Shown here one piece after another: positions 3,018 through 62,732 of a DNA stretch of 64,000 nt. Origin of the DNA: a virus. The notes under the pieces are model-generated. The model searched no databases, was not told the DNA's origin, and saw nothing but the letters and a program-made list of their open reading frames with translations. The translations under genes were made by a program, and so were the position numbers. Each line of letters begins with the position of its first letter. The first letter of the stretch is position 1. The DNA lies in the IMG/VR virus record IMGVR_UViG_3300045988_174823, one strand, 5' to 3'.

Positions 3018-4769
3018 CTATCCAAACAAAAGGGTTTCTGCTTTTTCAATCGACATATCGTCAGCGGATAACGTACCGAGTTCCGCGTTATGGGCTTTCC
3101 ACGTGTCGGGAATCATATCCTCAGCGCCAAGCGTTTTGGCGCGACGTTTAATCCAGCGGCGAGCCCGTTCAGGATTCTTTGCGTTGCCGGCCAAGCGGAT
3201 GGCATTCTTCAGGTCGGACTTGTTACGAATCGGGAATGAACCATCGGGGAGGGCCTCCTTTTTATCAGCAAGACGCTCACGTTGCTTTTCGGTAAAATCG
3301 GCCTTTTCGAGCGATTCTGCGGAGTCGAGCAGCGCTTCGGCCTTGGCTATCTCATCGGAAGTTTCGACGGGCTGGATGGCCTCGTACACGAATCCTTTCG
3401 TCAGTGCACGTACTGCGGCCCGCTCCCACTCTTTTTGCTTATCACCGATGAGATTGGTCCACTCACCGCCTATCTTGGCCATCCTGTTAGAACGGTCAGT
3501 AGAACGCTTCTCCGATAAGATGGTTCCGAAAGTACGGGTGGTAAACTTAGCAGGGTCGATTTTGTTCTTATTCTTAACGATAAGATCGAACAATTCTTTG
3601 CGTTCCTTTTTATCCTCTTCAGGGTCGTCGAGGTGCGGTTGCTGGGGAATATCCATTTCCTCGTAACGATCCTTCAGAACTTCGATCGTTTCATCGACGG
3701 TAAGATATACCTCCGACGTCAGCGTAGCGCGCGAAATGATGACCTTAGTGTCCTCGTTCTTCGAAAGGTTCACGAGGTCCTTGTTGGTCATGATAATGAT
3801 ACGGCCCGTGAATACGAAATTCGACTTGACGTCTTCCGGGTCGCCGACCACACGCTTACCTGAAGCGGCGGTGGCTTTCTTCATGATGGAAGCCAAGTCG
3901 GCGCGAGTGATAACGGAGTCGGTATCATCGAACAGAAGAATCTTACCGTTGTGTGCTTTCAGTACACCCAGCAGCTGCTTCTTGGAGTTGATGTCGCCGA
4001 GCTCAACGTAGTCATAGTCGCCGTCGCCTGGAGAATCGGTTTCAGCGTCGAATGGACGTTTATTGAGCAGTTCGGCAATTTTCTTGAAACCGTACGATTT
4101 ACCGATACCTGCGCCGCCAGCCGAGATCATGAACCGATGTTCCTTGTTATCGAGGAACTCAAGATACTGACGGTTAAGATCATACATAACCTCAACAGGC
4201 GGTTCGTAATCGGGATCCTTTTTCTTCATCGCATAGACGAAGCGGTCGTAAGCGATACGGTCTTGACGGCTCTGAAGTTTATTAAACTTTTTCTGAATGC
4301 GCGGGTCTTCGGGGTTAAGAAACCAGTCCTCGACGATTTCACCATCGTCGTTTCCACCCTCGCCGTCGTTAATGTCCACTTGAGCTCCGGTACTGGTAGG
4401 CGCAACAGGATCCTGTTTGGCAGTCATCTTAAGCAACGTAGATAACGTTCCGCTGGTATCCACCTGCGACATATCGGCATTACGGGATTTCAGTTCGTTG
4501 TAAGCGATATGTCGCAGCTGCGCATTGCCCTTGGGGTTGTTGACAACTTTCAAAAGGTTATCATCGCTGGTCTTCTTGGCCCACGCTTCAAGACTCGTCG
4601 CAGGACCCGAATCGCCCGATTCTTTACCAGTATCGGCGCTGGGCTTGGGTTTAGCGTTCTTATCGACACGCCAGTTGAACTTTCCAGGCTTGTACTCCGT
4701 CCACACCCACGGCTGGGTGGGGTGATGGTCGCCGACGTTGTGCTTTGCTTTTTGAATAATATCTGACAT
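3018..4769 (-). CDS. P-loop NTPase
   Basis: 583-aa ORF with Walker A ISAGGAGIGKSYGF and Walker B KILLFDDTD. C-terminal ALPDGSFPIRNKSDLKNAIRLAG motif. ATG confirmed at 4769. Confidence 0.6.
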   Translation of the reverse strand: MSDIIQKAKHNVGDHHPTQPWVWTEYKPGKFNWRVDKNAKPKPSADTGKESGDSGPATSLEAWAKKTSDDNLLKVVNNPKGNAQLRHIAYNELKSRNADMSQVDTSGTLSTLLKMTAKQDPVAPTSTGAQVDINDGEGGNDDGEIVEDWFLNPEDPRIQKKFNKLQSRQDRIAYDRFVYAMKKKDPDYEPPVEVMYDLNRQYLEFLDNKEHRFMISAGGAGIGKSYGFKKIAELLNKRPFDAETDSPGDGDYDYVELGDINSKKQLLGVLKAHNGKILLFDDTDSVITRADLASIMKKATAASGKRVVGDPEDVKSNFVFTGRIIIMTNKDLVNLSKNEDTKVIISRATLTSEVYLTVDETIEVLKDRYEEMDIPQQPHLDDPEEDKKERKELFDLIVKNKNKIDPAKFTTRTFGTILSEKRSTDRSNRMAKIGGEWTNLIGDKQKEWERAAVRALTKGFVYEAIQPVETSDEIAKAEALLDSAESLEKADFTEKQRERLADKKEALPDGSFPIRNKSDLKNAIRLAGNAKNPERARRWIKRRAKTLGAEDMIPDTWKAHNAELGTLSADDMSIEKAETLLFG

Positions 4770-12224: not shown

Positions 12225-12248
12225 GACTTTATAGGTTCATAAGTTTCA

Positions 12249-12293
12249 TTTCCAATACAAAGGTAGTTAAATTTCTCCAAACTGCCAAGAGCG
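12249..12293 (-). promoter_or_regulatory. promoter-like repeat, copy P1 (divergent)
   Basis: Plus strand reads TTTCCAATACAAAGGTAGTTAAATTTCTCCAAACTGCCAAGAGCG. The sense strand has TACCTTTG (12265-12258), which matches TAnnTTTG, 34 nt upstream of the ATG at 12224. Confidence 0.45.
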
Positions 12294-22010: not shown

Positions 22011-22033
22011 AACCAATTTTGTTTTACGATTCC

Positions 22034-22092
22034 TTTCCAAGAGCGAAGGTACGGCGAAAAATCGGATTCTCCAAGAGAATTTGAAAAAATTT
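22034..22092 (-). promoter_or_regulatory. promoter-like repeat, copy P2
   Basis: Plus strand reads TTTCCAAGAGCGAAGGTACGGCGAAAAATCGGATTCTCCAAGAGAATTTGAAAAAATTTT. The sense-strand TACCTTCG box (22051-22044) lies 34 nt upstream of the ATG at 22010. Confidence 0.45.
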
Positions 22093-24334: not shown

Positions 24335-27052
24335 CTAACCTAACATATCGAATTTAAATCCGGTAGTCATACGCGACGCCGCCAAGTCGGCCAGCCAAAA
24401 CGACGACGAAATATCATCGTGACTACCGACACTCTCCAGCCCTTTTTCGGTAAAGGCAACGGAACCGAGGTCTTGGAAGATGAGGTCCTTGACCTGCTGA
24501 GAATAAACGTTACCTATCGGGATGTGGATTTTGCCGCGCTCGAACAACGTCGAAAGGTGCGGCCATCCGGTCTTCAGGTCGTACTTATCAATTCCCGTAG
24601 TGTGACCAATAACGGGCATACCCTCGGTGTCGGCTGTCTCGACGAATATCTGTTGGAATGTGTTATTCTCCATCACGATAAGGTCAGGCCGGAAGCGGGA
24701 GTTGATACGGCGCAGAACGTTCATCTGCTCGAAAAACTTGGCACCTTTTTCACGGTAGAGGTGCAACAGCCAGCGCTCGTCGGTCAATTCGTCAATACCC
24801 CATACGCTAAATACGGCGTAGTCGGCGCCGACGTTGGCTGAAATAGCGAAGTCGCACCCGACAACCACTTTAGAGAACTTAATGGGGAATTCTTCGCGCG
24901 AATCAACCAACGTGTAATTTTCCATCCGCAGTAGCGAACGCGTGAGGATTTCCATCGGGAAGATTGACGACTCGTTGGTAATCGGGCGACAAAGGTTCTC
25001 ACGCGAGAAGATGATTGAACCCTGGGTCTCCTTTTTATCCATCAGGTCCTTAAACGACCAACGCTGGGGCCAAAGGATTCGTCCGTCGGGGAAGATGGCT
25101 GGATACTCGATAACGAACCAACCGTTCTTGGTCTTCAGGTCGCCGTAAAGGTCTTCGGCGTGGAACGGCGTACCGACGACGATAATCTGGCCACCAGGTA
25201 CGAGCATATTCATGATTACGGAGTGGAAATAGTCGGTGGACTTATTTCGTTGGAGACTGGAGTAAATGACGTTGTCCTTCAAGCCGTCATCTACGATAAT
25301 CCAATACGGGTGAGCACCACGCACCGACGATCCAAAACCTTTTCCCGTCAAACGTGCTCCGTTACGGCACACGATATTGGTAGCCGACCAGTTGTTGGCT
25401 GTCGATTGGGGAAACAGCCGTTCCTTCAATATCTCGTTTTCCTCAATAGTGCCTTTCAGAATCTCCAAAAGGTCCACACTCTGTTGTAACGAGAACGAGA
25501 ACAAGAATCCGCGATTTGATGAAGCTGCCGCAGGTCGTTTCGAGTAGCGGGTGGTTGACGGCTTCTTGTAACGGTATAGCTGCCACGCGGCGTAGGCGTT
25601 GGAGAAATAGAACGAGTTGTGCGTAACCGTACCGTCACCCAGCACGAAGCGGTGGTCGCCGTCGGTGGTGATAGATATGTAGTCACCTTCACCCGCGGGC
25701 GTGATCTTCAACGACGATACCACCGTAGGGTGTACGCCGTCGATAGTGCCCCAGTCCTTGTGTGACGTCTTGGCGGCCCAGTCGGTTTGGACCTTTTTAC
25801 GAGCGATCTTTACTGGGATGCGGTCCAGTTCACCAGAAATAGTCACGCACCACGACGAATAGTCGCGGCCTAACGCTTTACAATACCGCGTTCCACCACC
25901 CATTCGGGTACAGAAGCCAAGGCTGTCGGCCAAGTTCTTCACGTCACACACCAACTGGTAGTTCGTATTACCGAAGTGATAGCCGCCCTGCCAATAGTTA
26001 CCGTCGGAATCGATCAACCCAGCCAACACCTGAAGACGAACTTCTTCGCTGTTGACGAGGTACTGCTCCGGAATGTGCTTATTGTAGAGCAGGTTGTAAC
26101 CCTTGAGCATCCTTTCCAGCGGGTTACGCTTACCGCGGCCACGAACGTCAATTCCAAGTGTCACTACCATACCATTTTGGCCATAGTGAAGCCCCAAGCG
26201 CTCGGCGTAAGAGTGTAAGTACTCACACACTTCAGGGTCGGCGGTGGTGATCTTCTGGTTGTTGGAGTTGCCGTCGCCTAACCAGTACCCAAGAAAATAT
26301 GGTTCCAACCCCACGGGCCGCGTGGGGTACTGCACTGCCACCTTGAAACCGCGGTAACGTTCCTTCACCCAGTTCGGGGTCTTGCTTAAAAGCGTCGGAA
26401 TATCAATATCCACTATCCGCTTCGACGCTGTAGCGATGGAACCGTTGCGGTCCTTCTCGATCAGCGTACAAATGTGGCGTGAGTTGACGGTGTGGCTATC
26501 ACCGCGCGACTGGTCGATACGGTACATCATCGAATCGTGGCCACGGCGCGTAGCAACCACGCGGCGGGGCTTAGAGTCGATGCCCATCAACAAGTCGCCA
26601 ACCACAACGTCTTCGACCTTTTTGATAGTTCCGTCGTACATTCGGACGGGGGTTCCGACGGCTTCGCACTTTCCGTGGTCACGCGCTGCGTTGATACACA
26701 ATTTCTTGTGGTTATGGACTAATTCACCCCATTCCAGGTGGTGCCACGACAGCTGGAAGTCAGGGATAACAGAGGTGATGAAATACGTCAAGTTGGCGCA
26801 TCGTAGGGTATCTTCTACGACGGCCGAAACGTTTTCTTCGTAGCGGGGTTTGAAGTCAATCGACGCGTCACCCGTGTACATAATACGATATGTGTCCTCC
26901 AACAGAGCGTCGAATATCGTATCAACGTCGTGTATATCGCCACTCATCATCTCATTCAACCCACGCTCGTCCATACCCTCGATTATTTCATCAACGAGGT
27001 CTAAACAAGCCAAACGGTGCGTAACCGAGGGTGCTGTAATCTGAGGTATCAT
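24335..27052 (-). CDS. terL: terminase large subunit interrupted by an intein in the Walker A motif
   Basis: Removing residues 129-479 gives NAARDHGK-SFYFS (P-loop). The remaining ~550 aa have a terminase-like layout. Confidence 0.8.
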   Translation of the reverse strand: MIPQITAPSVTHRLACLDLVDEIIEGMDERGLNEMMSGDIHDVDTIFDALLEDTYRIMYTGDASIDFKPRYEENVSAVVEDTLRCANLTYFITSVIPDFQLSWHHLEWGELVHNHKKLCINAARDHGKCEAVGTPVRMYDGTIKKVEDVVVGDLLMGIDSKPRRVVATRRGHDSMMYRIDQSRGDSHTVNSRHICTLIEKDRNGSIATASKRIVDIDIPTLLSKTPNWVKERYRGFKVAVQYPTRPVGLEPYFLGYWLGDGNSNNQKITTADPEVCEYLHSYAERLGLHYGQNGMVVTLGIDVRGRGKRNPLERMLKGYNLLYNKHIPEQYLVNSEEVRLQVLAGLIDSDGNYWQGGYHFGNTNYQLVCDVKNLADSLGFCTRMGGGTRYCKALGRDYSSWCVTISGELDRIPVKIARKKVQTDWAAKTSHKDWGTIDGVHPTVVSSLKITPAGEGDYISITTDGDHRFVLGDGTVTHNSFYFSNAYAAWQLYRYKKPSTTRYSKRPAAASSNRGFLFSFSLQQSVDLLEILKGTIEENEILKERLFPQSTANNWSATNIVCRNGARLTGKGFGSSVRGAHPYWIIVDDGLKDNVIYSSLQRNKSTDYFHSVIMNMLVPGGQIIVVGTPFHAEDLYGDLKTKNGWFVIEYPAIFPDGRILWPQRWSFKDLMDKKETQGSIIFSRENLCRPITNESSIFPMEILTRSLLRMENYTLVDSREEFPIKFSKVVVGCDFAISANVGADYAVFSVWGIDELTDERWLLHLYREKGAKFFEQMNVLRRINSRFRPDLIVMENNTFQQIFVETADTEGMPVIGHTTGIDKYDLKTGWPHLSTLFERGKIHIPIGNVYSQQVKDLIFQDLGSVAFTEKGLESVGSHDDISSSFWLADLAASRMTTGFKFDMLG
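25616..26668 (-). mobile_element. intein (351 aa) with LAGLIDADG homing endonuclease
   Basis: Starts with Cys (tgc, 26668-26666) and ends VTHN (aac, 25618-25616), followed by +1 Ser. Contains LGYWLGDGNS and LAGLIDSDGNY. Confidence 0.8.
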
Positions 27053-28280: not shown

Positions 28281-28330
28281 TTTCGTTGTACAGTTTTTGT
28301 TGTTAGACGCACTGTATAACGTTGGCTATT

Positions 28331-29067: not shown

Positions 29068-29288
29068 GGGGATGGATTAAACCTTTGATTGATGGAAGTA
29101 TGTTAAATACTTTATGGTCGGGGCGATATTTCACGCCCCGTGTTCGTCGGTTGTCGTTCCTATTGGTGCTCCCCTGTGCCGGCCGGGCGAACTGCCACAA
29201 CGATGACGAACGAAATTTCTTAAAAAGCCCCTCACCCATGGACTTTCGGGCCGCGTCTGCCGCACGCGGTTTTAATTGGGGCTTCTTG

Positions 29289-29359
29289 TTGACCCGGAAG
29301 GATTCGAACCTCCAACACCGGAACCAAAATCCGATGTGTTACCATTACACCACAGGTCA
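29289..29359 (-). tRNA. tRNA-Gln: tRNA-Gln (anticodon UUG)
   Basis: Hand-folded cloverleaf. Acceptor TGACCTG/CGGGTCA (U1-A72 as in bacterial tRNA-Gln), D arm GTGT-AATGGTA-ACAC, anticodon arm TCGGA-TTTTGGT-TCCGG, T arm GGAGG-TTCGAAT-CCTTC, discriminator A. No encoded CCA. Confidence 0.85.
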
Positions 29360-29742
29360 GTTAAGGGGCGCGACGCATCGCTTATACTCTTCCCCCCTTG
29401 TAGAGTCTGTCTCCTCCGCTCCGGCGCTCGCTATGGAGGAAGTCTGCGTTGCTGCCTTGGAGACAATTTTGTTACTGGTGTCAGGACTTATACGTTCCGA
29501 GACCTGACTTAACCCCACCAGCCTTGAGGTATTGGTGCCAGCCGACTGGGCGTCGGGACGGACACTGTGTAGAGTAATTCGTGGCCACTCTTTGACTCAA
29601 CAGCACCCTTTTCTGGCCAAAAGTAGAGGAAATACCGCGGTTGGAAAAGAAACTACACTCGTTGAAAACCTAACTCTTCATTGCTTGGCGTTAAGCGGCG
29701 TTTCCTCGTTTCAGATACTATAACGTTGAAGCGAAAGTAACT
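29360..29742 (-). ncRNA. candidate structured non-coding RNA upstream of (co-transcribed with?) tRNA-Gln
   Basis: About 380 nt with no credible ORF, lying between a terminator and the tRNA. Composite helix CTGGT-GTCAGG...CCTGAC-(8-nt bulge)-ACCAG (29474-29520), GTCTCC/GGAGAC (29409-14/29459-64), and TGGCCA/TGGCCA (29582-87/29613-18). Family not recognised. Confidence 0.25.
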
Positions 29743-29776
29743 AAAAATCCGCCAGGGGCAACCACATCCCTGGCGG
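29743..29776 (-). terminator. Rho-independent terminator after the HU gene
   Basis: Perfect 9-bp stem CCGCCAGGG/CCCTGGCGG with a 10-nt loop, followed on the sense strand by ATTTTT. Confidence 0.7.
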
Positions 29777-29810
29777 ACGTACGAAAGCGAACTGTGCTAC
29801 CAGTTACGGG

Positions 29811-30098
29811 CTATTTCTTAGCCTTTTTGCCGTAGGCGCGGAAACTGTACGCCGGACGGAACTGGATAGTCTTGTAGGGGTCAGTGGGGGCCGTAACACC
29901 CGTCTGCGGGTTACGTGCCATACGCGACGGTTGGTCCTTGGGGACGAACTTTCCCACCTTACCGATAGGGATGATTTCGTCCTTGTCGCGAACCTCCTCG
30001 GTGAGAATCTCTTCCAAAGCACGGACGAAAGCAATCGCCTGGGCCTTGGTAGTGCCGGCCTTGGCGGCCAAAGCACCGTAAAAATCTTGCACTTTCAT
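29811..30098 (-). CDS. hup: HU/IHF-family DNA-binding protein
   Basis: MKVQDFYGALAAKAGTTKAQAIAFVRALEEILTEEV...IPIGKVGKFVPKDQPSRMARNPQTGV...FRPA. The ATG at 30098 is chosen (track ORF extends to 30233) because it does not overlap the upstream gene. Confidence 0.8.
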   Translation of the reverse strand: MKVQDFYGALAAKAGTTKAQAIAFVRALEEILTEEVRDKDEIIPIGKVGKFVPKDQPSRMARNPQTGVTAPTDPYKTIQFRPAYSFRAYGKKAKK

Positions 30099-30136
30099 TG
30101 TACGATAATTTTGATTGTTGATAAATATGGGGTTTG

Positions 30137-30616
30137 TTAAACCTTTGTCGAAGCGATGGTAATTCCTAATTCTACCAGCTGTGAACGTAACGAATTCCAA
30201 GCAGCGTCGCGGGCTTCGGGGTTTATCCACCATTCGGAGAAATTATCACCTTCCGCAGCCATAGTGTCGTGGTTAAGGACGATGCCGTATTCGAAGCGTT
30301 GTTGTGAGTCGTTATATCGATCTACGCGGACTATCGACCGGATGGCGTACCACGGGACCACGACATCGCCCAACTCAATAAACACGCCATTCAAGCGTTT
30401 TTTATTCGTCGCTTCGTCAGCGTGACCCAGGAAGTCGGTTAACGACATATCGTAATCTGGACCATCGTCGGCGTTGCGTTCGGCGTCATACGGCCGTGCC
30501 TTTACCGTCGCGGGCTTATCACCAAATAGCGGCAGGCCATTGGCGCCGCGAGGTATCTTATGAGCCTTTTCAGGCGGCTGTTTTTCGTCAATTTTCGACG
30601 TGCGGACCTTTACCAT
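30137..30616 (-). CDS. hypothetical protein
   Basis: 159-aa ORF with an ATG start. Confidence 0.5.
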   Translation of the reverse strand: MVKVRTSKIDEKQPPEKAHKIPRGANGLPLFGDKPATVKARPYDAERNADDGPDYDMSLTDFLGHADEATNKKRLNGVFIELGDVVVPWYAIRSIVRVDRYNDSQQRFEYGIVLNHDTMAAEGDNFSEWWINPEARDAAWNSLRSQLVELGITIASTKV

Positions 30617-31539: not shown

Positions 31540-31803
31540 TTACCACTGGACCATCATCCGGAAATAGGCGAAATATTTCCTTGTGCGGTTCAGGCCCACA
31601 GTTTCGGTTTTGTAAACTTCATCTATCGTTACTTCGTAACCTTGTTTCTTCAAACGCTGAGCAACGTATTTCAACCTGTTGCCGTTGGCGTCTTCGTTGA
31701 AGAATTCGCGTTTCCCCCTGGCGATAGCGCGTTGGATTCCAAACTCTACGTCAGCCAATGCCAATTCGTAAATCCAATTCCCCAGCCAAAAGATCTTCGG
31801 CAA
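31540..31803 (-). CDS. hypothetical protein (start uncertain, TTG in track)
   Basis: 87-aa ORF overlapping the upstream ORF by 53 nt. Confidence 0.35.
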   Translation of the reverse strand: MPKIFWLGNWIYELALADVEFGIQRAIARGKREFFNEDANGNRLKYVAQRLKKQGYEVTIDEVYKTETVGLNRTRKYFAYFRMMVQW

Positions 31804-31954
31804 TTTCGTAATTCAGGTGGCGCTGGGCCAAGGTGGTAAGTTTACGAGCCTGGGCGGCGGTGAGTATGGGACGGAATTGCTTGTTATCGAGTTGTACGCT
31901 GGGTGTTTGCTGTTGGCGTTCCATTTCGTGATTTTTGAGGTTTTCAACACTCAT
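31751..31954 (-). CDS. hypothetical protein, first gene after the non-coding hub
   Basis: 67-aa ORF with its ATG at 31954. Confidence 0.45.
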   Translation of the reverse strand: MSVENLKNHEMERQQQTPSVQLDNKQFRPILTAAQARKLTTLAQRHLNYEIAEDLLAGELDLRIGIG

Positions 31955-31977
31955 AACGTTGGCGATGTCTTACGCTG

Positions 31978-32074
31978 GTGTGTACGCGTGTGTACGCTGG
32001 CGTGTGGGGTGCTTGGCGGCTTGCTTCTCTCGCGCGCGCGTATGTCCACACGTGTACGCGCTTGCACGCGCGTG
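31978..32074. repeat. cluster of alternating purine-pyrimidine tracts and GTGTACGC repeats
   Basis: Uninterrupted alternating Pu/Py runs at 31978-31997 (20 nt), 32031-32045 (15 nt, including (CG)5), 32047-32061 (15 nt) and 32063-32074 (12 nt). GTGTACGC(G/T) occurs three times. Confidence 0.8.
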
Positions 32075-32084
32075 AGGCCCCAAA

Positions 32085-32116
32085 GTGTAGAGAGAAGTGT
32101 TTTTTTCTCTCTACAC
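32085..32116. repeat. perfect 12-bp inverted repeat (hairpin)
   Basis: GTGTAGAGAGAA (32085-32096), 8-nt loop, TTCTCTCTACAC (32105-32116). Confidence 0.85.
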
Positions 32117-32254
32117 CGGGTATTGGGGTAAAGGAGGGGGGGATTATAGGGGGGAAGGATAGGGAAGGTTAGGAAGTAAGGGGGTGTGGGGGGAGAGAAA
32201 CCTGCAGGAAGGGGAAGTAAGGGGGGAAGAAAGGGGAGGAGGAGAAGGGGGAAA
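32117..32254 (+). repeat. polypurine / G-run tract (G-quadruplex or triplex-prone)
   Basis: No C on the plus strand across 32117-32199 or 32207-32254. Eleven runs of G3-G7. Terminal pure-purine block of ~35 nt. Confidence 0.85.
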
Positions 32255-32444
32255 CCGCCAAAAGGGCGAAAATCTCTCTAAAAAACGAGAAAAATCTCAA
32301 CGACAGAAAATCGTCAAAACCAAAAACTGCCAAAGGGTGAAAACCGTCAAGAAAATCTTACAAGAAGAGCGAAACTGCCAAGACAGTCAATCAGGAAATC
32401 GCCAACAGCGAAAACCATCAACAGTCGTACAGCCCTCTTGGCAG
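32251..32444. promoter_or_regulatory. iteron-like array: about 10 imperfect direct repeats GAAA(A)yCGyCAA plus one inverted CTCTTGGCAG
   Basis: Copies start near 32251, 32268, 32289, 32306, 32322, 32339, 32351, 32371, 32395 and 32410, spaced 12-24 nt. An inverted copy lies at 32435-32444. The words CTGCCAAGA and AAATCGCCAACAG recur in promoter-like repeats P1 and P4. Confidence 0.6.
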
Positions 32445-32642
32445 CCAGGCGAAGGATGAAAGACGTCGCTGGAATGTCGTGGTCGGTGCTGGTGAGGCGT
32501 TACAGCCGAGGTGAACGTGTAACATCGTTCAACATGTCGCTGCGAGGTCGTTAAGACGTTAACGCGATTTTAGACCATTTGACGAACTATCTATCCTCAG
32601 GGGACCCCGGTGTACCGGAAAAGCATTTTGCGCAGTCAAACG

Positions 32643-32680
32643 AAAAGAAAAAGGGCCAATACAACAATTTGCATTGACCC
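32643..32680 (-). terminator. Rho-independent terminator after ORF 32706-33704
   Basis: Sense strand GGGTCAAT-(12 nt)-ATTGGCCC (8 bp, one G-U) followed by TTTTTCTTTT. Confidence 0.7.
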
Positions 32681-32705
32681 TCTACAGACGCAAATAGCCT
32701 ACGTG

Positions 32706-33704
32706 TTACGATACAGGCTTTTCGTCGGCTTTCAACACAGCTTCAGCATCAGCGACCTTGTCGTCCAGGTCCGTCACCTGAGGCTCGCTACCATCGGTGG
32801 GGACGTCAATACGCTTCAGCCCTACCTTGGACCCCAGCTCACGACCTAACATCGCAGCCAACGCCGCCATGGGGTTATCCTGGGAAGCGAAAGTGGGTTG
32901 TTCCTCTTCGTCAGGGTCAGGGATACCGTGTTCGCGACGAAAAGCCTCCGACTGAGTACGAAAACGTGCGTGGTACTCTTGTTGAATGCCGTCAGGATTG
33001 GTACGGAGCCAACCCTCATCAGCCAGCGTGGCCAACAGCGGTACGTTGAAAGCGACCAGTTTCTCTACCAGGAACGTACCAACGCCAAACACGTTGACCA
33101 ATAGCACACCGTCGGTGCGGCGATACGTAGCGCCCATCAGGTCCTGATCTACCAACACGAACTGACCGTAGAGTTCGCGCGGATTGGTAGTGGGGACGTG
33201 TTGAGCAATTTTCTCCACACCGATGCCGCAGTGGCCGTAACGTTCGTTGACGATCTCCAGTATCGTACGCTCGATAACGCGCCACTCCTCGTCCAGCACC
33301 GGGCCGTATTTTTCGATAGCCTTGGCGCCAAGGGCGGTGAAGTAAAGCGCATCGTCGTCAGGGCAGAACTCCATCAATCCGGCGTCGGTACATTCGTGCG
33401 ACAAACGCTTGATTTCGCTGACGACCGTGGCGCCATCGCTGATAGGTATCACCGCCCTAAACGCCAGGTTGTTATCCAGGAACGTTCCCAGCCACTGACG
33501 AATTTCGCCGTAACGCGGAGCAGCCTCAGCTACGTCAGTGAAAGGCAGCGGACCCTCATCCACACGGATGATACTCGGGCGGTCGGCAGCAGCGTTGGCC
33601 GCAGCGTACAGGAACAGGACCTGAGTCTTGGTGATACGCGCTTCGTCGTTGATAGGTAACGCCTCCTGGGCGTTGAACACGGTGGTAATTACGTTTGTTT
33701 CCAT
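32706..33704 (-). CDS. hypothetical acidic protein
   Basis: 332-aa ORF with an ATG start, followed by a terminator. Confidence 0.55.
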   Translation of the reverse strand: METNVITTVFNAQEALPINDEARITKTQVLFLYAAANAAADRPSIIRVDEGPLPFTDVAEAAPRYGEIRQWLGTFLDNNLAFRAVIPISDGATVVSEIKRLSHECTDAGLMEFCPDDDALYFTALGAKAIEKYGPVLDEEWRVIERTILEIVNERYGHCGIGVEKIAQHVPTTNPRELYGQFVLVDQDLMGATYRRTDGVLLVNVFGVGTFLVEKLVAFNVPLLATLADEGWLRTNPDGIQQEYHARFRTQSEAFRREHGIPDPDEEEQPTFASQDNPMAALAAMLGRELGSKVGLKRIDVPTDGSEPQVTDLDDKVADAEAVLKADEKPVS

Positions 33705-39091: not shown

Positions 39092-39188
39092 TTTTCCAAG
39101 AGCGAAGGTAGTGTAAATCTCCAAGACTTCAAAGAGAATCGCGAAAAATCTTCCAAGAAAAGTGAATTATTTCGTAAATCGCCAACAG
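39092..39188 (-). promoter_or_regulatory. promoter-like repeat, copy P4
   Basis: Plus strand reads TTTTCCAAGAGCGAAGGTAGTGTAAATCTCCAAGACTTCAAAGAGAATCGCGAAAAATCTTCCAAGAAAAG...AAATCGCCAACAG. Confidence 0.5.
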
Positions 39189-39221
39189 AAACCCCCAGCG
39201 GACGAGTTGGTCCACCGGGGG
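39186..39221 (-). terminator. terminator-like imperfect hairpin after ORF 39242-39793
   Basis: CCCCCAGCGGAC / GTCCACCGGGGG (10 of 12 bp) followed on the sense strand by a weak TTTCTGTT tract. Confidence 0.35.
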
Positions 39222-49044: not shown

Positions 49045-49896
49045 CTATAAGATAATAACGTTGGTGCGAATCATACCCTTGAACCACCCATCAGGTACGG
49101 GAACTCCCTTTGGTAAACGTTTATTTTTCAATCCATTATTAATCCATACAAATTTCGTTCCGGTTAGCGGATGTGGATGGGTAGAATAGTATTTCTTCAT
49201 CCGTTCCGACACCACATTTTTATGTTTACTATAATATTTCTTGTTAGCTTCAGAAATTTTGCGTTTAGTATCATCCGACATTGCGCCTCGTACACGCCCT
49301 GACATAATTTCCGAATGTCTTCTTTTCCATTCTTCGGTGTGATGTTTACCGCGCAACGCCTCGGCAACTTTGTTTATGTGCTCTTGAGTCTTTTTCTTTC
49401 CTCTTAACGCTTTCGATATCTTTTCGCGGTGTTCTGCAGTGATAATTCTCCCGATAAGAGATTGGGACTTCTTGGCTTTTGACTCTTCTGATTGCTTAAT
49501 TCCTGTCATCCGAATCCTTATTGCTTCTCGCGCTGCTGGAGAAGATAACCTCCGTTTAGCGGCGATTGACATTTTACACTTAACCTCAGGAATTTTAGCC
49601 GGGTTTACTTGACCAAACATATTCGATGAACCCGGAAGGATGTTATATCCTATGTCCTTTTCAGTCGAGTGCAGCTTCTTGATGTAAAGCATCTCCCAAG
49701 CATCCAACTGAGGTTGTGTGTCGCAAATACGGAGCGTTTCACGCTTGAAATTCTCAGGGCCGTAATGTCTAACAGCTAAGAGCAAGTTCCTTCCGCTTCC
49801 CAAATACCCGTCGAATTCGTCAGATTCACAAACGTGTTAACCGATGTAAATCTTGCCGTTGACGAGGTTCGTAGTTTTGTAAATTATACCGTACAT
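49045..49896 (-). pseudogene. free-standing GIY-YIG homing endonuclease gene with an in-frame TAA at codon 20
   Basis: MYGIIYKTTNLVNGKIYIG*HVCESDEFDGYLGSG.... The TAA at 49839-49837 replaces the CAA found in the paralog at 59772. The rest of the frame stays open (NUMOD-like C-terminus). The first 32 nt are identical to copy 2. Confidence 0.75.
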
Positions 49897-49936
49897 ATTA
49901 CCAGTTTTGTACGGTTATAATTGTTTAGTAGGCTTA

Positions 49937-56976: not shown

Positions 56977-59022
56977 CTATTGTAATATCTCTAACCTTGT
57001 AGATTGTGAAGACTGTACGGTCTTCTTTCCAGCGAAATAATTCACACGCCCTGAAACAGCCACAATACGGTTCAACAGCGTAGCTTCGTTTTCCGGCTGA
57101 TGAAGCCAAAAGTCAGGCCACAACGTAATCTGGATGATGAGGTCGTTGACCTCCACTTGCAGTACACCGTAAGAATCGCCACCTTTGGTTTGACGTTCGA
57201 ATACGTTATTCGCACGACCAACGATACAAACCTCGTCGCCCTCGTGTTTACGCTCAAACTCGGCGGCGGTAACGTACAGCCGAACCATCCGTTTTCCGAG
57301 TCCGTATTCGTTCATCATACGTTCGTAGTCCACCTCGCCGTACCCGGTTAATTCACGCTGTTTGAAGACCCACCAGGCGTTAGTGTGAGCATCAGGCGAA
57401 GTGAATTCGTCGGAAAGCGGTTCACCGCGGCGTTCGAGATATTGCTTGACGATATCCAGACGCTGACGAGGATTGCGTATGTCTTCTACCAGATCGAACG
57501 CTCCAGCCATAATAAGACGCAACACCACAGTACGGTTTATGCCTTTAGGGGCAGAAGTTATGAAGTCCTCAAACGAGAACACTTCGCCGTGTTCATCTTT
57601 CATGGCTTTCAATAGCGTCAACGCCCGCTCGCCTACTCCCTTGACCTTACCCAGCGAAAAGAAGATACGGTTCGTCTTGGGGTCGCACGTAAAGGTTTCA
57701 CCCGAGAAATTGATATCCGGCGGACGGACCTCAATTTCGGCCCCGGTTTTCTTCATCTCCACCAAGCGATACGGGATATCGGACTCCTTCGAGGCGTACT
57801 GAAGCGACGTCGTCCAGAACTCCAGCGGGTAGTTAACCTTAAACCACTGTGACCAGTACGACATCATGGTATAGGCCACGGCGTGCGACTTGTTGAAGCC
57901 GTACCCTGAAAAGGCCAGCAGTTTGCTCCAAACCTCATCAGCCCGCGCTTCAGGTTTCTCAGTCAACCCGCGTTCGCGCAACAAGGTCGCGTATCCGGCA
58001 CGGAACTTATCGTGAAACGACTCGATAAGGTCCATATTTTTCTTCTTGATGGCGGTACGCAGGATATCGGATTCCACTGGACTCAGACCGCCTACAACGA
58101 CGGCTTTCATTATCTGCTCCTGGTAGGTATAGAGCGAATAGGTGTCGCGCGTTATTTCCTCCATACCGGGGTCGAATTTAGGCTTCCGGGCGCCATTCTT
58201 AATTTCAACGAACGTTTCGTGCGCCTTAACATCCATAGGACCCGGACGGAACAACGCCGTCATAGCGATAAGGTCGTCCAGGCTATGCGGTTTGGCCTCG
58301 CGGCAGTAGTTCATCAACCCCATAGCGCCAAACTGGAACACATCCTCGCACCAACCGCGCTGGAAATACCGGAATACCTCCTCGTCGTTGAACGGGATGG
58401 TGTTGACGTCGATTTGCTCCTTGCGGTTCTTGGCGATAAGTTTCAGAATAGATGAAAATTTATCCAGCTGGTTGAGACCTAAAATATCCTCTTTCAAGAA
58501 CCCTGACTTGTCGATATACTTACCCTCCCACTCGGAGACCAGCACACCACCCATGCGTTTCATAGGCATCCACCCGTAAAGGTCGATGGGGTTTCCGTCT
58601 TCGTCTTTCCGGGGTACGATGATAACGGCCGACGGATGAACTGAACCCGTCTTACACTGCGTAAGGGCGTATTTCGTCATGTGCACCAACTCCGGATGGT
58701 CCTGGACGAAACGGAACAATTCCCGCGACGTAGCGGCGTAGTTGAACAGGTCGCCCCACGTGTATTCTATCTGGTCGTCAATGTCCTTGGTGAGTTTATT
58801 CATCACCGCAAACGGCACGCCCATAACCTTACCAAAGTCCTTCAAACAGGTTTTCAGTTTCATGCGTGTGTACGTACCCACGGAGCAAACGTGGTCAACG
58901 CCGTAACGACGAGCCATGTACTCCTTTACCGTATCGCGGAACGCCACCGGGAAGTCGCAATCCACGTCCGGCATGCTGTCCTGACGAGCAACTTCAATCT
59001 TTTTTATTTTTAGAATTCTCAT
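56977..59022 (-). CDS. dnaE: DNA polymerase III alpha (DnaE-type), C-terminal piece starting at the catalytic PDxDxDF motif
   Basis: MRILKIKKIEVARQD-SMPDVDCDF, FRPGPMD and GYGFNKSHAVAYTMMSYWSQWFKVNYPLEFW. Its ATG (59022-59020) overlaps the endonuclease TGA as ATGA. Confidence 0.85.
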   Translation of the reverse strand: MRILKIKKIEVARQDSMPDVDCDFPVAFRDTVKEYMARRYGVDHVCSVGTYTRMKLKTCLKDFGKVMGVPFAVMNKLTKDIDDQIEYTWGDLFNYAATSRELFRFVQDHPELVHMTKYALTQCKTGSVHPSAVIIVPRKDEDGNPIDLYGWMPMKRMGGVLVSEWEGKYIDKSGFLKEDILGLNQLDKFSSILKLIAKNRKEQIDVNTIPFNDEEVFRYFQRGWCEDVFQFGAMGLMNYCREAKPHSLDDLIAMTALFRPGPMDVKAHETFVEIKNGARKPKFDPGMEEITRDTYSLYTYQEQIMKAVVVGGLSPVESDILRTAIKKKNMDLIESFHDKFRAGYATLLRERGLTEKPEARADEVWSKLLAFSGYGFNKSHAVAYTMMSYWSQWFKVNYPLEFWTTSLQYASKESDIPYRLVEMKKTGAEIEVRPPDINFSGETFTCDPKTNRIFFSLGKVKGVGERALTLLKAMKDEHGEVFSFEDFITSAPKGINRTVVLRLIMAGAFDLVEDIRNPRQRLDIVKQYLERRGEPLSDEFTSPDAHTNAWWVFKQRELTGYGEVDYERMMNEYGLGKRMVRLYVTAAEFERKHEGDEVCIVGRANNVFERQTKGGDSYGVLQVEVNDLIIQITLWPDFWLHQPENEATLLNRIVAVSGRVNYFAGKKTVQSSQSTRLEILQ

Positions 59023-59772
59023 TTCTTTCTCGGTTTCATTCCATGCCAAAATCCATCGGGGAGAGAGGCGTCCTTGCAAATAGTAGCGTTTATTTCGCCG
59101 TTAGTTATCCTAACTTTGCCTTGCATAGGGTTCGTGTATCCACGTTCATACCTATCGCGTAATTTCTTTCCAAAATCTTTTCGCCGCTCCTCGGGCCAGC
59201 GATTATGCCAGTTAGGGTTATTTTCACCCTTGTATCGCCCTTTCATTTTAGCCGACAAATTTGCCTTTTGTTCAGCCGTCCATCGGTTGCCGTAGTTTGG
59301 ATTCTTTTCGCCTATGTATCGCCCTTTTAAGGTCTTCGAAATTTTTTTTCTTATAATCAGTATTATCTAAAGCAATTTGACGTTTTTGATGAATTTGCTT
59401 CATTAATTCTGGATGATTCTTGAATGTCTTTTTAAGCGACCGTGAAACTTTCAAAGCAACCTCTGGAATCAACATGGGTGAGCCGCTTCCAAACTTATTA
59501 GCCGTACCCGATAAGATATTGTAGCCAATCCTCTTATTGGTTGAATTGAGTTTCTTGATGTATAGCATTCCCCAGGCGTCGAGTTGTAACTGGGTATCGC
59601 ATACGCGGAGCGTTTCACGCTTGAAGTTCTCAGGTCCGTAATGTTTAACCGCGTTCGTCAAAGATACACCACTACCCAAATACCCGTCAAACTCGTCAGA
59701 TTCGCAAACATGTTGGCCGATATAAATCTTGCCGTTAATTAGGTTCGTAGTTTTGTAAATTATACCGTACAT
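59019..59772 (-). mobile_element. GIY-YIG homing endonuclease gene inserted in dnaE, split into two frames at an A8 run
   Basis: ORF 59272-59772 has GIIY...KIYIG. The NUMOD3-like repeats (GEKNPNYG, GENNPNWH) continue in the frame of ORF 59019-59258, open from 59366. The frames meet at sense-strand A8 (plus T8 at 59342-59349), and A7 would give one ORF. Confidence 0.75.
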
Positions 59773-62682: not shown

Positions 62683-62732
62683 ATCCTTAATACGGTTTTA
62701 TCTGGGGTAAATAACGTTGAAGACGGGTGGAC

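What the first reader, a model, noticed from the sequence alone, without database searches (positions are those of the whole stretch)
32117..32254. 138-nt C-depleted polypurine tract with eleven G3-G7 runs
The plus strand has no C across 32117-32199 (83 nt) and none across 32207-32254. Eleven G-runs fall within about 135 nt, for example G7 at 32136-32142 and G6 at 32149-32154, 32188-32193 and 32221-32226. The tract ends in a ~35-nt pure purine block. Nothing else in the window approaches this strand asymmetry. Such sequence can form G-quadruplexes, intramolecular triplexes or stable R-loops. On the transcribed minus strand it would be a C/U-rich leader. Because it lies next to iteron-like repeats, a replication-origin or R-loop-primed initiation role is plausible.
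Basis: partly seen in the sequence, partly recalled or inferred. Interest (0 to 1): 0.8.

Follow-up and report, generated by a model that had tools for sequence, protein, structure and literature searches.

The report
Conserved G/C-skewed box of phage origins
The purine-rich tract is real, and it is an enlarged copy of a roughly 75-base DNA element that many unrelated gut phages carry next to their own tandem repeats, often inside their replication-initiator genes, so it is most likely part of the phage's replication origin.

Summary
The + strand has an 83-nt and a 49-nt C-free run, eleven G-runs and a 36-nt pure purine block. All are far beyond chance and unique in the window.

The window is a roughly 100-kb human-gut phage, probably with a Bacteroidota host, with a T4-type replisome and all genes on the minus strand. 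The tract lies in the largest non-coding gap (31925-32705). Read in the direction of the genes, the order is: terminator, about 7-11 TTGRYRRTTT repeats, the tract, a covarying 12-bp hairpin.

All 39 complete relatives keep the tract and hairpin. Its 80-nt core stays 81-87% identical where flanking genes are 54-67% identical.

The same element (CCCCCCTTTCTTCCCCC, about 35 nt, CCCCCCTATAATCCCCCC) occurs in more than 120 other phage contigs and three MAGs, forming 29 flank clusters. Family-specific iteron arrays always lie on the same side (12 of 12). In nine clusters an ORF reads through it; eight of these are replication-initiator or replisome-organizer genes. It is read in two frames (PPYNPP or PPIIPP), so the conservation is in the DNA.

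Verdict: this is the non-iteron half of an iteron-type origin. Strong G4 potential is specific to this enlarged copy. R-loop priming is untested.

The parts
32706..33704 (-). Upstream gene (332 aa) of unknown function. It is a candidate iteron-binding protein only because of its position.
   Evidence: ORF list. No Pfam or PHROG hit. AlphaFold model is poor (pLDDT 50). Foldseek gave nothing significant, only a weak winged-helix flavour. hhalign found no relation to the initiators that carry the element.
32650..32683 (-). Intrinsic terminator that ends the upstream transcription unit.
   Evidence: a 12-15 bp stem followed by TTCTTTTC. The equivalent terminator directly abuts the tract in relatives with a short gap.
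32252..32421 (-). Iteron array. Seven good copies of TTGRYRRTTT (32421-32412, 32405-32396, 32381-32372, 32350-32341, 32333-32324, 32317-32308, 32261-32252) plus 3-4 degenerate copies. The last copy abuts the tract.
   Evidence: Copy number varies among relatives, but a TTGGC(G/A) copy always abuts the tract.
32262..32300 (.). Least stable duplex segment on the iteron side of the tract (A-rich on the + strand). It is a candidate site of DNA opening.
   Evidence: Nearest-neighbour stability profile: -1.14 to -1.26 kcal/mol per step against a window mean of -1.42.
32117..32254 (.). The finding itself: a tract G/A-rich on the + strand and C/T-rich on the gene (minus) strand. It is an enlarged copy of the conserved origin element.
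32221..32236 (-). Box 1: CCCCTTTCTTCCCCCC on the minus strand (GGGGGGAAGAAAGGGG on the + strand).
   Evidence: The same box is present in most of the 29 flank clusters, usually 49-54 nt upstream of Box 3; here the distance is 84 nt.
32180..32193 (-). Middle box: CCCCCCACACCCCC on the minus strand.
   Evidence: The same CCCCCACACCCC box is seen in the unrelated L204, L265 and L173.
32136..32154 (-). Box 3: CCCCCCTATAATCCCCCCC on the minus strand (G7-ATTATA-G6 on the + strand).
   Evidence: It is the only TATAAT in the window that is flanked by C-runs.
32085..32116 (.). Hairpin 1: a 12-bp perfect inverted repeat (GTGTAGAGAGAA / TTCTCTCTACAC) with an 8-nt spacer, preceded by CCGG (32116-32119).
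   Evidence: repeat I3. Ten sequence variants among relatives keep the stem through compensatory changes at 4 or more positions. In five variants the G-rich strand pairs through G-T/U wobbles where the C-rich strand has A-C mismatches. This is also a low-stability segment.
31963..32082 (.). G+C-rich segment of alternating purines and pyrimidines with GTGTACGC repeats and short palindromes. Most relatives have further covarying hairpins at this position.
   Evidence: repeats D2, D4, D8; 3 of the window's 5 GTGTACGC copies lie here; covariation in hairpin 2 of relatives.
31953..31961 (-). CAACGTTAT motif, a probable promoter element of the downstream gene.
   Evidence: five copies, all on the minus strand, each 29-36 nt upstream of an ATG, against 0.62 expected by chance.
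31751..31924 (-). Start of the downstream gene. The conserved ATG is at 31924, not the first ATG at 31954.
   Evidence: Alignment with relatives.

Best explanation
The tract is the conserved, non-iteron half of an iteron-type phage replication origin.

The origin, read along the gene (minus) strand, has this order: a family-specific array of direct repeats (here TTGRYRRTTT); then a strand-asymmetric element, C/T-rich and almost G-free on that strand, made of Box 1 (CCCCCCTTTCTTCCCCC), a C-rich middle part and Box 3 (CCCCCCTATAATCCCCCC); then CCGG and a hairpin.

What is shown: this architecture and its polarity recur in many unrelated phages. Where the element lies inside a gene, that gene is the replication initiator or replisome organizer, as ori lambda lies inside gene O.

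What is inferred (mechanism):
- An initiator protein loads on the iterons.
- The duplex opens at the weak A/T-rich segments that flank the tract, and perhaps at the TATAAT core.
- The purine-rich strand (window + strand) then folds on itself through hairpin 1 and, in this enlarged copy, G-quadruplexes. This holds the bubble open and leaves the C-rich strand single-stranded for loading of the phage's DnaB/gp41-type helicase and primase.

I regard priming by a G-rich antisense RNA (an R-loop) as a possible but less likely variant of the same role.

The window's 138-nt version is an expansion by extra C-run units of the usual element of about 75 nt.
For: 1. Position. It is single-copy and lies in the largest non-coding gap of the window, between an intrinsic terminator and the next promoter-like motif, so it is probably not part of an mRNA.

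2. Conservation in the clade. All 39 relatives whose contig covers the site keep the tract and hairpin 1 (5 further contigs end before it); their upstream protein is 46-99% identical to the window's. The 80-nt core is 87% and 81% identical between L001 and L060/L058. In the same pairs the upstream gene is 60-67% identical, the downstream gene 54-56%, and the adjacent non-coding DNA 57-63%.

3. Spread beyond the clade. It also hits MAGs of Ruminiclostridium, Oscillibacter and Alloprevotella. The Box 1 to Box 3 distance is mostly 49-54 nt.

4. Iterons. In 12 of 12 clusters with a clear tandem array, the array lies on the 5' side of the C-rich strand, directly abutting the element, and never on the 3' side. 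Each cluster has a different repeat sequence, mostly with a 9-12 bp period. Examples are L206 with 12 copies of GAAGCAAA, L297 with 8, L204 with 5 and L193 with 4.

5. Gene context. In 9 clusters an ORF reads through the element, and 8 of these match PHROG families for replication initiation, replisome organizer or DnaD-like proteins: L163 7.6e-32, L265 4.3e-29, L297 4e-27, L105 3e-26, L289 1.9e-22, L204 3.3e-11, L193 3.3e-10, L201 1.2e-7. In L204 the gene order is SSB, organizer (containing the element), then DnaC/IstB-like loader. In two further families the element lies 0.5-0.9 kb after a DnaB-like helicase gene.

6. The constraint is on the DNA. Box 3 is translated as PPYNPP in 5 clusters and as PPIIPP in 4. 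Box 1 is translated as PPFLPP or PLSSP. The element is non-coding in the window's clade and many others.

7. Known parallel. Ori lambda lies in the middle of gene O and consists of iterons followed by a strand-asymmetric tract (PMC7466680; sequence read).

8. Replisome. The phage has a T4-type set: gp41-like helicase, primase, split PolB, UvsX, Dda-like helicase and SbcCD.

9. Hairpin 1. It covaries, and it pairs better on the G-rich strand (-16 to -20 against -11 to -14.5 kcal/mol in five variants).
Against: - There is no experimental evidence of any kind. Origin function is inferred from architecture and gene context in other phages.
- In the window's own phage no initiator is recognisable. 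The adjacent 332-aa protein has no detectable relation to known initiators.
- The window's repeats are irregularly spaced (16-56 nt), unlike the 9-12 bp arrays seen elsewhere.
- Similar TTGGnGATTT motifs also precede promoters at about 39.1, 22.0 and 12.2 kb. They could therefore be sites for a transcription factor.
- There is no GC-skew inflection at the site.
- The tract itself has average duplex stability and is not an easily melted unwinding element.
- T4, the model for this type of replisome, uses promoter/R-loop origins without iterons (own knowledge).
- The commonest form of the element has no canonical G4, so the G4 part of the mechanism cannot be general.
- In several clusters the element lies in a divergent intergenic region upstream of genes in the same orientation, which would also fit a promoter.
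Confidence: 0.7

Rival explanations
1. It is a promoter with a structured leader. TATAAT in Box 3 would be a -10 element with a G+C-rich discriminator. The C-rich DNA upstream would bind an activator or RNA polymerase. Hairpin 1 and the following hairpins would be the 5' end of a stable leader RNA, an antitermination RNA or a small non-coding RNA.
For: Box 3 contains a perfect TATAAT. The C-rich strand usually has the same orientation as the downstream genes, and 8 clusters place the element in divergent intergenic regions. Many copies have an A about 7-8 nt after TATAAT. Hairpins 1 and 2 covary. The conserved core of about 75 nt is roughly the size of an RNA polymerase footprint.
Against: There is no -35 element at 16-18 nt. 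The distance from the middle box to TATAAT varies from 13 to 19 nt. The window's host is very probably a Bacteroidota: there is no Shine-Dalgarno usage and there are TTTG-N19-TAnnTTTG promoters. Such hosts do not use TATAAT, and no TAnnTTTG is present here. One variant in the clade replaces TATAAT with TATAT or TTATATA but keeps the C-runs. The element lies inside initiator ORFs in 8 clusters, and iteron arrays always abut it. The wobble pattern of hairpin 1 favours the opposite strand.
Confidence: 0.12
2. It is a shared 'boundary' sequence: a selfish or recombination-promoting stretch of DNA at which unrelated phages exchange modules. Its own sequence would have no role in replication.
For: Nearly the same 75 nt occurs in phages that otherwise share nothing. 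Within the window's clade the type of intergenic region does not follow protein similarity: L001 has a 99%-identical upstream protein but a different gap, while L060 has a 46%-identical protein but the L001-type core. One copy, with 12 iterons, sits in apparently chromosomal Alloprevotella DNA. A homologous organizer in the isolate FP_Brigit lacks the element.
Against: This does not explain the fixed polarity relative to the iterons, the fixed Box 1 to Box 3 spacing, or the repeated location in initiator genes specifically. Recombination could instead be a consequence of a shared functional sequence.
Confidence: 0.06
3. It is a loading (rut) site for the host Rho factor on the sense transcript. 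It would back up the intrinsic terminator and insulate the replication genes from the packaging and structural genes.
For: On the sense strand the tract is 75 C against 4 G over 138 nt, and it is about 75-80 nt long in the common form. That matches the size and composition of a rut site. It follows a terminator and precedes hairpins that could act as pause sites.
Against: Rut sites are degenerate, whereas this element is conserved base for base across phyla. In 9 clusters it is translated inside an ORF, 8 of them recognisable replication genes, where ribosomes would block Rho. In divergent intergenic regions nothing is transcribed into it from upstream.
Confidence: 0.04
4. It is a packaging (pac) signal or the boundary of the genome ends.
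For: It is a large repeat-rich non-coding region. An HU-like gene lies 2 kb downstream and the terminase gene 5 kb downstream. Several metagenome contigs end inside the tract. In cluster L118 the element lies next to the terminase genes.
Against: About 100-kb contigs of relatives are cut at unrelated positions and read through the site. In most clusters the neighbours are replication genes, not terminase genes. Contig breaks are expected at such an extreme, length-variable tract for technical reasons.
Confidence: 0.04

Closest known systems
Ori lambda and lambdoid origins (iterons plus a strand-asymmetric tract inside the initiator gene O)
   Same: The order of parts is the same: tandem initiator-binding repeats, then a strand-asymmetric tract, then a palindrome or hairpin. 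In 8 flank clusters the element lies in the interdomain region of the initiator or organizer gene, as ori lambda lies in the middle of O (PMC7466680; sequence).
   Different: The lambda tract is A+T-rich, easily melted and purine-rich on the coding strand. Here the tract is G+C-rich (C 41-64% on the gene strand), of average stability, pyrimidine-rich on the coding strand, and nearly identical in sequence across unrelated phages with different iterons and initiators. In the window it is intergenic, and no O-like protein is recognisable.
Origins inside replisome-organizer genes of Firmicutes phages (for example SPP1 oriL in gene 38)
   Same: L204, L105/L297, L163 and L265 have the gene layout of this class: a DnaD-like organizer carrying the repeats, followed by a DnaC/DnaI-like loader. 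SPP1 theta replication starts at oriL (PMC5737612, abstract seen). That oriL lies in gene 38 is my own knowledge.
   Different: As far as I know, the described origins of this class have repeats plus A+T-rich DNA, and no conserved C-run element has been reported. The organizer of the isolate FP_Brigit, homologous to that of L105, lacks the element.
G-run-dependent R-loop priming: mitochondrial CSB II (hybrid G-quadruplex) and the persistent RNA II hybrid of ColE1
   Same: G-runs lie beside a replication start.
   Different: Those systems need transcription that makes the G-rich RNA from a defined promoter. Here, where an ORF spans the element it lies on the C-rich strand in about nine of ten cases, so gene transcription would make C-rich RNA. 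No antisense promoter was found. The commonest form of the element lacks a canonical G4.
T4 oriF(uvsY) and oriG(34): a promoter plus an unwinding element, primed by an R-loop
   Same: The replisome type is the same (gp41/gp61-like, PolB, UvsX, Dda, gp46/47-like). The site is non-coding or regulatory and lies between gene blocks.
   Different: T4 origins have no iterons and no dedicated initiator (own knowledge). This site has an iteron array and a sequence element shared with phages that use lambda- or DnaD-type initiators.
G+C-rich segment of the plasmid RK2 oriV
   Same: It is an iteron origin with an additional G+C-rich element of unclear role beside the A+T-rich region (own knowledge).
   Different: There is no sequence similarity, and it is not known to be strand-asymmetric or shared between unrelated replicons.

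Membership tests
Iteron-type (lambda-like) phage replication origin | Array of direct repeats that could bind an initiator | tested here: met
   There are seven good and 3-4 degenerate TTGRYRRTTT copies at 32252-32421. The spacing is irregular (16-56 nt). Other clusters have 3-12 copies with a 9-12 bp period.
Iteron-type (lambda-like) phage replication origin | Adjacent easily melted (A+T-rich) unwinding region | tested here: inconclusive
   The tract itself has average stability (-1.35 to -1.56 kcal/mol per step). Weak segments flank it at 32262-32300 (-1.14) and 32080-32110 (-1.21).
Iteron-type (lambda-like) phage replication origin | Located inside or next to the initiator gene | tested here: inconclusive
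   This is met in 8 other flank clusters. In the window the neighbouring 332-aa protein cannot be identified as an initiator.
Iteron-type (lambda-like) phage replication origin | Supports initiator-dependent replication, and the initiator binds the repeats | not testable with these tools
   This needs plasmid replication assays, EMSA or footprinting, or marker-frequency analysis.
Intramolecular G-quadruplex-forming sequence | Four or more G-runs of at least 3 with short loops (1-7 nt) and a high G4Hunter score | tested here: met
   The window copy has 11 runs, 4 canonical starts and a G4Hunter score of 1.71. The G4-aware minimum free energy is -35.7 against -6.9 kcal/mol. The commonest relatives (L001, L043, L060) do not meet this: 0 canonical motifs even with loops up to 12 nt.
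Intramolecular G-quadruplex-forming sequence | Folds in K+ but not in Li+, and stalls polymerases | not testable with these tools
   This needs CD, UV melting and polymerase stop assays.
R-loop-primed origin (ColE1, T4 ori or mitochondrial CSB II type) | A promoter placed so that the nascent RNA is the G-rich strand across the tract | tested here: not met
   No sigma-70-type or Bacteroidota-type promoter reads rightwards into the tract. All genes, and nearly all ORFs that span the element, lie on the C-rich strand. A weak GATTAT on the G-rich strand within Box 3 is the only candidate, noted by eye.
R-loop-primed origin (ColE1, T4 ori or mitochondrial CSB II type) | A persistent RNA-DNA hybrid whose 3' end primes DNA synthesis | not testable with these tools
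   This needs DRIP, RNase H sensitivity tests and mapping of RNA-DNA junctions.
Rho utilisation (rut) site | At least 70-80 nt of C-rich, G-poor, untranslated transcript | tested here: inconclusive
   The composition fits (75 C against 4 G). Whether it is transcribed is unknown because a terminator lies just upstream. In 9 other clusters the element is translated.
Host promoter (sigma-70 type, or Bacteroidota TTTG-N19-21-TAnnTTTG type) | Both promoter elements at the correct spacing | tested here: not met
   TATAAT is present, but there is no -35 element. No TAnnTTTG lies in or near the tract, although such promoters exist elsewhere in the window.
Described RNA family (Rfam) | A match at the curated threshold | tested here: not met
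   Only one tRNA was found in the whole window.

The most novel reading that the evidence does not exclude
The element of about 75 nt is a portable origin-opening or priming device that does not depend on a particular host. It could be combined with any pair of iterons and initiator, and it would spread horizontally among phages of Firmicutes and Bacteroidota. After the initiator distorts the DNA, the purine strand would fold (paired G5-N6-G5 boxes, hairpin 1, and full G-quadruplexes in enlarged copies such as this one). Alternatively it would capture a short G-rich RNA started at the Box 3 core, as at mitochondrial CSB II. Either way this would replace the classical A+T-rich unwinding element.
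Probability: 0.2. Interest if true: 0.9.

Novelty: new variant of a known kind. Interest (0 to 1): 0.72.

Why it matters
Origins of uncultured phages are almost never annotated. A short DNA signature that marks them across phyla would allow origins to be located in thousands of gut phage genomes. The signature is family-specific iterons followed by CCCCCCTTTCTTCCCCC, about 35 nt, then CCCCCCTATAATCCCCCC.

Three further points follow if the reading is correct:
- It would show that an origin can use a G+C-rich, strand-asymmetric element where textbooks expect an A+T-rich one. That makes the question of how such origins open directly testable.
- It offers a candidate part for building replicons or phage-dependent vectors for gut Bacteroidota and Clostridia.
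- It explains a recurrent point at which metagenome assemblies of these phages break or join wrongly.

The fact that the same DNA is read in two reading frames, or not read at all, is an unusually clean demonstration of selection on DNA inside protein-coding genes.

Tried and rejected
- Near-identity DNA search of isolate phages with the locus found no match. tblastn of both flanking proteins against isolate phages also found nothing.
- Rfam scan of the whole window found only a tRNA.
- Cumulative GC skew showed no inflection apart from the tract itself.
- A sigma-70-type scan gave no promoter for the TATAAT. No Bacteroidota promoter motif lies in the gap.
- The 332-aa neighbouring protein could not be identified. 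The PDB sequence search gave nothing. The AlphaFold model was poor. Foldseek found nothing below E = 0.2. hhalign against two element-bearing initiators gave nothing.
- BLAST of the element against isolate phages and plasmids found nothing useful, probably because the low-complexity filter masks it. Absence from isolates is therefore not established.
- A literature search for the box sequences returned only irrelevant hits.
- A test of whether the element tends to lie at contig ends was abandoned, because locus lengths do not reliably mark contig ends.
- RNAalifold on both strands of the hairpin region gave similar energies and was confused by indels. Only hairpin 1 gives a usable strand signal.
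- A pyrimidine-motif triplex between the tract and the purine arm of hairpin 1 was considered and rejected, because the hairpin varies while the tract stays constant.
- A short ORF starting at the ATG in TAATGGTTT was considered and rejected, because indels shift its frame among relatives.
Full report
**1. The observation**

The + strand of 32117-32254 has 75 G, 44 A, 15 T and only 4 C. The C positions are 32117, 32201, 32202 and 32205. The C-free runs are 32118-32200 (83 nt) and 32206-32254 (49 nt). There are eleven G-runs of 3-7 at the stated coordinates, and 32219-32254 is a 36-nt pure purine block.

Nothing else in the window comes close. The next C-free run is 38 nt and the next purine run is 14 nt. 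The G4Hunter mean over 138 nt is 1.70, against at most 0.51 elsewhere. In 300 first-order Markov simulations the maxima were a base-free run of 57, a G4Hunter score of 1.09 and a purine or pyrimidine run of 22.

**2. What the window is**

All genes lie on the minus strand. The recognisable genes are:
- portal protein and large terminase;
- an HU-like protein;
- a Dda-like helicase;
- SbcC/SbcD-like proteins;
- UvsX;
- a family-B DNA polymerase split in two;
- a ThyA-like protein.

Relatives carry an SF2-type DNA helicase, a DnaB/gp41-like helicase and a primase just beyond the window's right end.

No isolate phage is close. The best match is to Bacteroides phages DAC19/20/22, with 37% identity in TerL. 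Relatives are contigs of about 97-101 kb from human-gut metagenomes.

The host is very probably a Bacteroidota. Only 7 of 77 genes have any Shine-Dalgarno-like motif, the leaders are A-rich, and promoters of the form TTTG-N19-TAccTTyG are present.

**3. Anatomy of the locus**

The tract lies in the largest non-coding gap of the window, 31925-32705. Read along the gene strand, the order is as follows.
- The end of a 332-aa gene.
- An intrinsic terminator at 32683-32650.
- About 230 nt of non-repetitive DNA.
- Seven good and 3-4 degenerate copies of TTGRYRRTTT (32421-32252), the last of which abuts the tract.
- The tract. It contains Box 1 (32236-32221, CCCCTTTCTTCCCCCC), a middle box (32193-32180, CCCCCCACACCCCC) and Box 3 (32154-32136, CCCCCCTATAATCCCCCCC).
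- CCGG, then a perfect 12-bp hairpin at 32116-32085.
- A G+C-rich segment of alternating purines and pyrimidines with GTGTACGC repeats.
- The motif CAACGTTAT at 31961-31953.
- The next gene, whose conserved ATG is at 31924.

CAACGTTAT occurs five times in the window. Every copy is on the gene strand and lies 29-36 nt before an ATG, two of them directly after terminators; 0.62 copies are expected by chance. It is probably a phage promoter element. If so, the tract lies between a terminator and the next promoter and is not an mRNA leader.

The tract has average duplex stability. The weakest DNA flanks it at 32262-32300 and at the hairpin, 32080-32110.

**4. Relatives**

Forty-four loci were collected whose upstream protein is 46-99% identical to the window's. 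They come from IMG/VR, JGI/ENA metagenomes and Logan assemblies. All 39 whose contig covers the site have a G-poor C/T tract ending in CCGG, or TCGG in the L051 group, followed by hairpin 1; 5 contigs end before it.

The tract length ranges from about 75 nt, the commonest form, to 138 nt in the window and its two nearest relatives, L039 and L044.

The common core is CTGTTGGCA-CCCCTTTCTTCCCCCTAATGGTTTCCCTCCTGCAACCTTCCTTTCCTTAACCCCCTATAATCCCCC. It is 87% and 81% identical between L001 and L060/L058. In the same pairs the end of the upstream gene is 60-67% identical, the start of the downstream gene 54-56%, and the adjacent hairpin region 57-63%. The sequence itself is therefore under strong constraint, not only its composition.

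The number of repeats varies widely, but a TTGGC(G/A) copy always abuts the tract.

Hairpin 1 exists in ten sequence versions that keep the stem through compensatory changes at four or more positions. In five versions the C-rich strand has one or two A-C mismatches where the G-rich strand has G-T/U wobbles. The fold is then 4.6-5.3 kcal/mol better on the G-rich strand. This is a hint, from a few lineages, that the hairpin acts as single-stranded nucleic acid of the purine-rich strand.

Several short contigs end inside the tract (L036, L046, L055, L056). This is most simply explained as an assembly or sequencing problem at an extreme, length-variable sequence.

**5. The element is not private to this phage**

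This was the decisive step. An exact search for the Box 3 core, CCCCTATAATCCCC, in IMG/VR returned more than 120 loci. About 40 of these, out of 119 matches, lie in G-poor C-rich tracts that also share Box 1 and a middle box with the window.

The composite pattern CCTTTCTTCCCC-N15-45-CCCCTATAATCCCC has 26 fixed bases and essentially no chance expectation. It also hit three MAGs: Ruminiclostridium, Oscillibacter and Alloprevotella.

The start-to-start distance from Box 1 to Box 3 is mostly 49-54 nt; in the window it is 84 nt.

**6. What the other copies show**

(a) *Iterons.* In 12 of 12 clusters with a clear tandem array, the array lies directly on the 5' side of the C-rich strand and never on the 3' side. 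The repeat sequence differs in each cluster, and the period is mostly 9-12 bp. Examples are 12 copies of GAAGCAAA in L206, 8 of GTTCTGAA in L297, 5 of TCCACGGAA in L204, 4 of TCCGCAGA in L193, 4 of AGAAGCTA in L194 and 4 or more of GTCACGCAT in L173. This is the arrangement seen in the window.

(b) *Gene context.* In nine clusters a long ORF reads through the element on the C-rich strand. Eight of these match PHROG families for replication initiation, replisome organizer or DnaD-like proteins, with E-values from 1e-7 to 8e-32. The ninth is cut off by a contig end. In L204 the gene order is SSB, organizer (with iterons and element in its linker), then a DnaC/IstB-like loader. In the two most abundant other families the element lies 0.5-0.9 kb after a DnaB-like helicase gene.

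(c) *Reading frames.* Box 3 is translated as PPYNPP in five clusters and as PPIIPP in four. Box 1 is translated as PPFLPP or PLSSP. Elsewhere the element is non-coding. The conservation is therefore in the DNA, not in a protein.

(d) *Independence from the protein family.* The organizer of the isolate phage FP_Brigit is homologous to that of L105 but has an ordinary linker without the element.

**7. Interpretation**

The arrangement is that of ori lambda. That origin lies in the middle of the initiator gene O and consists of iterons followed by a strand-asymmetric tract that is essential for unwinding (PMC7466680). The lambda sequence was read, where the four iterons are followed by ACACAAAAGACACTATTACAAAAGAAAAAAGAAAAG and then a palindrome.

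I conclude that the tract is the non-iteron half of an iteron-type replication origin, and that the window carries an enlarged copy.

*Shown:* the architecture, its polarity, its DNA-level conservation and its association with initiator genes.

*Inferred:* that an unidentified protein binds the TTGRYRRTTT repeats; that opening starts at the weak flanking segments or at the TATAAT core; and that the purine strand then folds (hairpin 1 and, in this copy, G-quadruplexes), leaving the C-rich strand free for helicase loading.

**8.

*G4.* This copy has four canonical G4 motifs and a large predicted gain from G4 formation. The commonest core has five G-runs arranged as two G5-N6-G5 pairs about 36 nt apart, and no canonical G4. 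A quadruplex with a long central loop remains possible, but multiple G4s cannot be the conserved function.

*R-loop.* Where an ORF spans the element it lies on the C-rich strand in about nine of ten cases. Transcription of the gene would therefore produce C-rich RNA, which is the unfavourable configuration for an R-loop. A G-rich RNA would require an antisense promoter. The only candidate is a weak GATTAT within Box 3, seen by eye and not supported by any scan.

*Triplex.* This was not tested beyond noting partial mirror symmetry in the purine block.

**9. Rivals**

*Promoter with a structured leader.* For: the perfect TATAAT, the orientation shared with downstream genes, and the location in divergent intergenic regions in eight clusters. 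Against: the missing -35 element, a host type that does not use TATAAT, the variant with TATAT, the location inside initiator ORFs, and the iterons.

*Rho loading site.* The composition fits. The base-for-base conservation and the translated copies do not.

*pac site or genome terminus.* Full-length contigs read through the site and are cut at unrelated places. The neighbouring genes are replication genes rather than terminase genes.

*Recombination boundary or selfish sequence.* This explains the mosaic distribution of the element. It does not explain the polarity, the spacing or the gene context.

**10. Weak points**

There is no experimental evidence. No initiator has been identified in this phage. 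The repeat spacing here is irregular. Similar TTGGnGATTT motifs precede promoters elsewhere in the genome. There is no GC-skew signal. Absence of the element from isolate phages could not be tested properly, because BLAST masks the sequence.

**11. Novelty**

Iteron origins, and origins inside initiator genes, are textbook knowledge. I did not find any description of a G+C-rich, strand-asymmetric element that is conserved nearly base for base next to different iterons in unrelated phages of at least two bacterial phyla and is read in two frames or none. Text searches for the box sequences gave only irrelevant hits. General searches on phage origins returned the lambda and SPP1 models only.

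I classify it as a new variant of a known kind.

Noticed in passing
window 56977-61463 (minus strand) and 49045-49900: The family-B DNA polymerase is split into two ORFs (59760-61463 and 56977-59079), with a 166-aa ORF (59272-59772) between them. That ORF and a second one near 49.9 kb begin with the same DNA of about 35 nt (gtacggTATAATttacaaaactacgaacct, encoding MYGIIYKTTN). This looks like two GIY-YIG homing endonuclease genes, one of them splitting the polymerase.
   Followed up: partly
window 24335-27052 (minus strand): The large terminase ORF is 905 aa. Its terminase matches fall in two blocks (aa 117-391 and 480-848), and the N-terminal part also hits helicase and primase PHROGs. Related Vibrio phage genes are annotated 'hint domain protein'. 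An intein or an inserted domain is possible.
   Followed up: no
window 29240-29810 (minus strand): A tRNA-Gln(TTG) at 29288-29359 is preceded by about 380 nt of G+C-rich non-coding sequence that looks structured. It lies after a terminator and a CAACGTTAT motif and has no Rfam match. It may be an undescribed RNA.
   Followed up: no
window, minus strand: 62711-62719, 49055-49063, 31953-31961, 29720-29728, 28316-28324: The motif yCAACGTTAT occurs five times, always on the gene strand and 29-36 nt upstream of an ATG, in two cases right after a terminator; 0.62 copies are expected by chance. It is probably a phage-specific promoter class distinct from the host type.
   Followed up: partly
window about 39100-39190, 22020-22090 and 12230-12290 (minus strand): Bacteroidota-type promoters (TTTG-N19-TAccTTyG) are preceded by TTGGAGATTT or TTGGCGATTT elements that resemble the repeats beside the tract. 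The same protein may act at the origin and at these promoters.
   Followed up: partly
L034, L058, L059 and L060 (hairpin 1) compared with phage lambda 39119-39132 (L207 220-233): The apex of hairpin 1 in these relatives contains ACACAAAAGACACT. The identical 14 bases lie immediately after iteron 4 of ori lambda, at the start of its unwinding tract. This could be chance in A-rich sequence or a shared functional motif.
   Followed up: partly
L206 (Alloprevotella MAG contig JBHAFF010000026.1), bases 4363-4700 of the locus: Twelve tandem GAAGCAAA repeats plus a complete element lie in what looks like chromosomal DNA, between MazG-like and RlmL-like genes, with no phage genes within 3 kb. It is either an orphan origin or a remnant.
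   Followed up: partly
L036, L046, L055, L056 (metagenome contigs of relatives); IMG/VR contig 3300029572_000001: Four short contigs end inside the tract. One 199-kb contig carries two diverged copies of the roughly 100-kb genome. The tract and the similarity between strains appear to cause assembly breaks and false joins.
   Followed up: partly
window 61465-62682 and 29811-30233 (minus strand): A 405-aa ThyA-like protein, possibly a dNMP hydroxymethylase, occurs together with an HU-like DNA-binding protein. This recalls the hmU-DNA and TF1 pair of SPO1 and hints that the phage DNA may be modified.
   Followed up: no
L245, L168, L265, L292 (other phage clusters): In these clusters the C/T-rich element is followed, and sometimes preceded, by long A/G-rich runs on the same strand (for example AAAAGAAGAGAAAAGAGAAAAA). 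These resemble both the purine arm of hairpin 1 in the window and the polypurine part of ori lambda.
   Followed up: no
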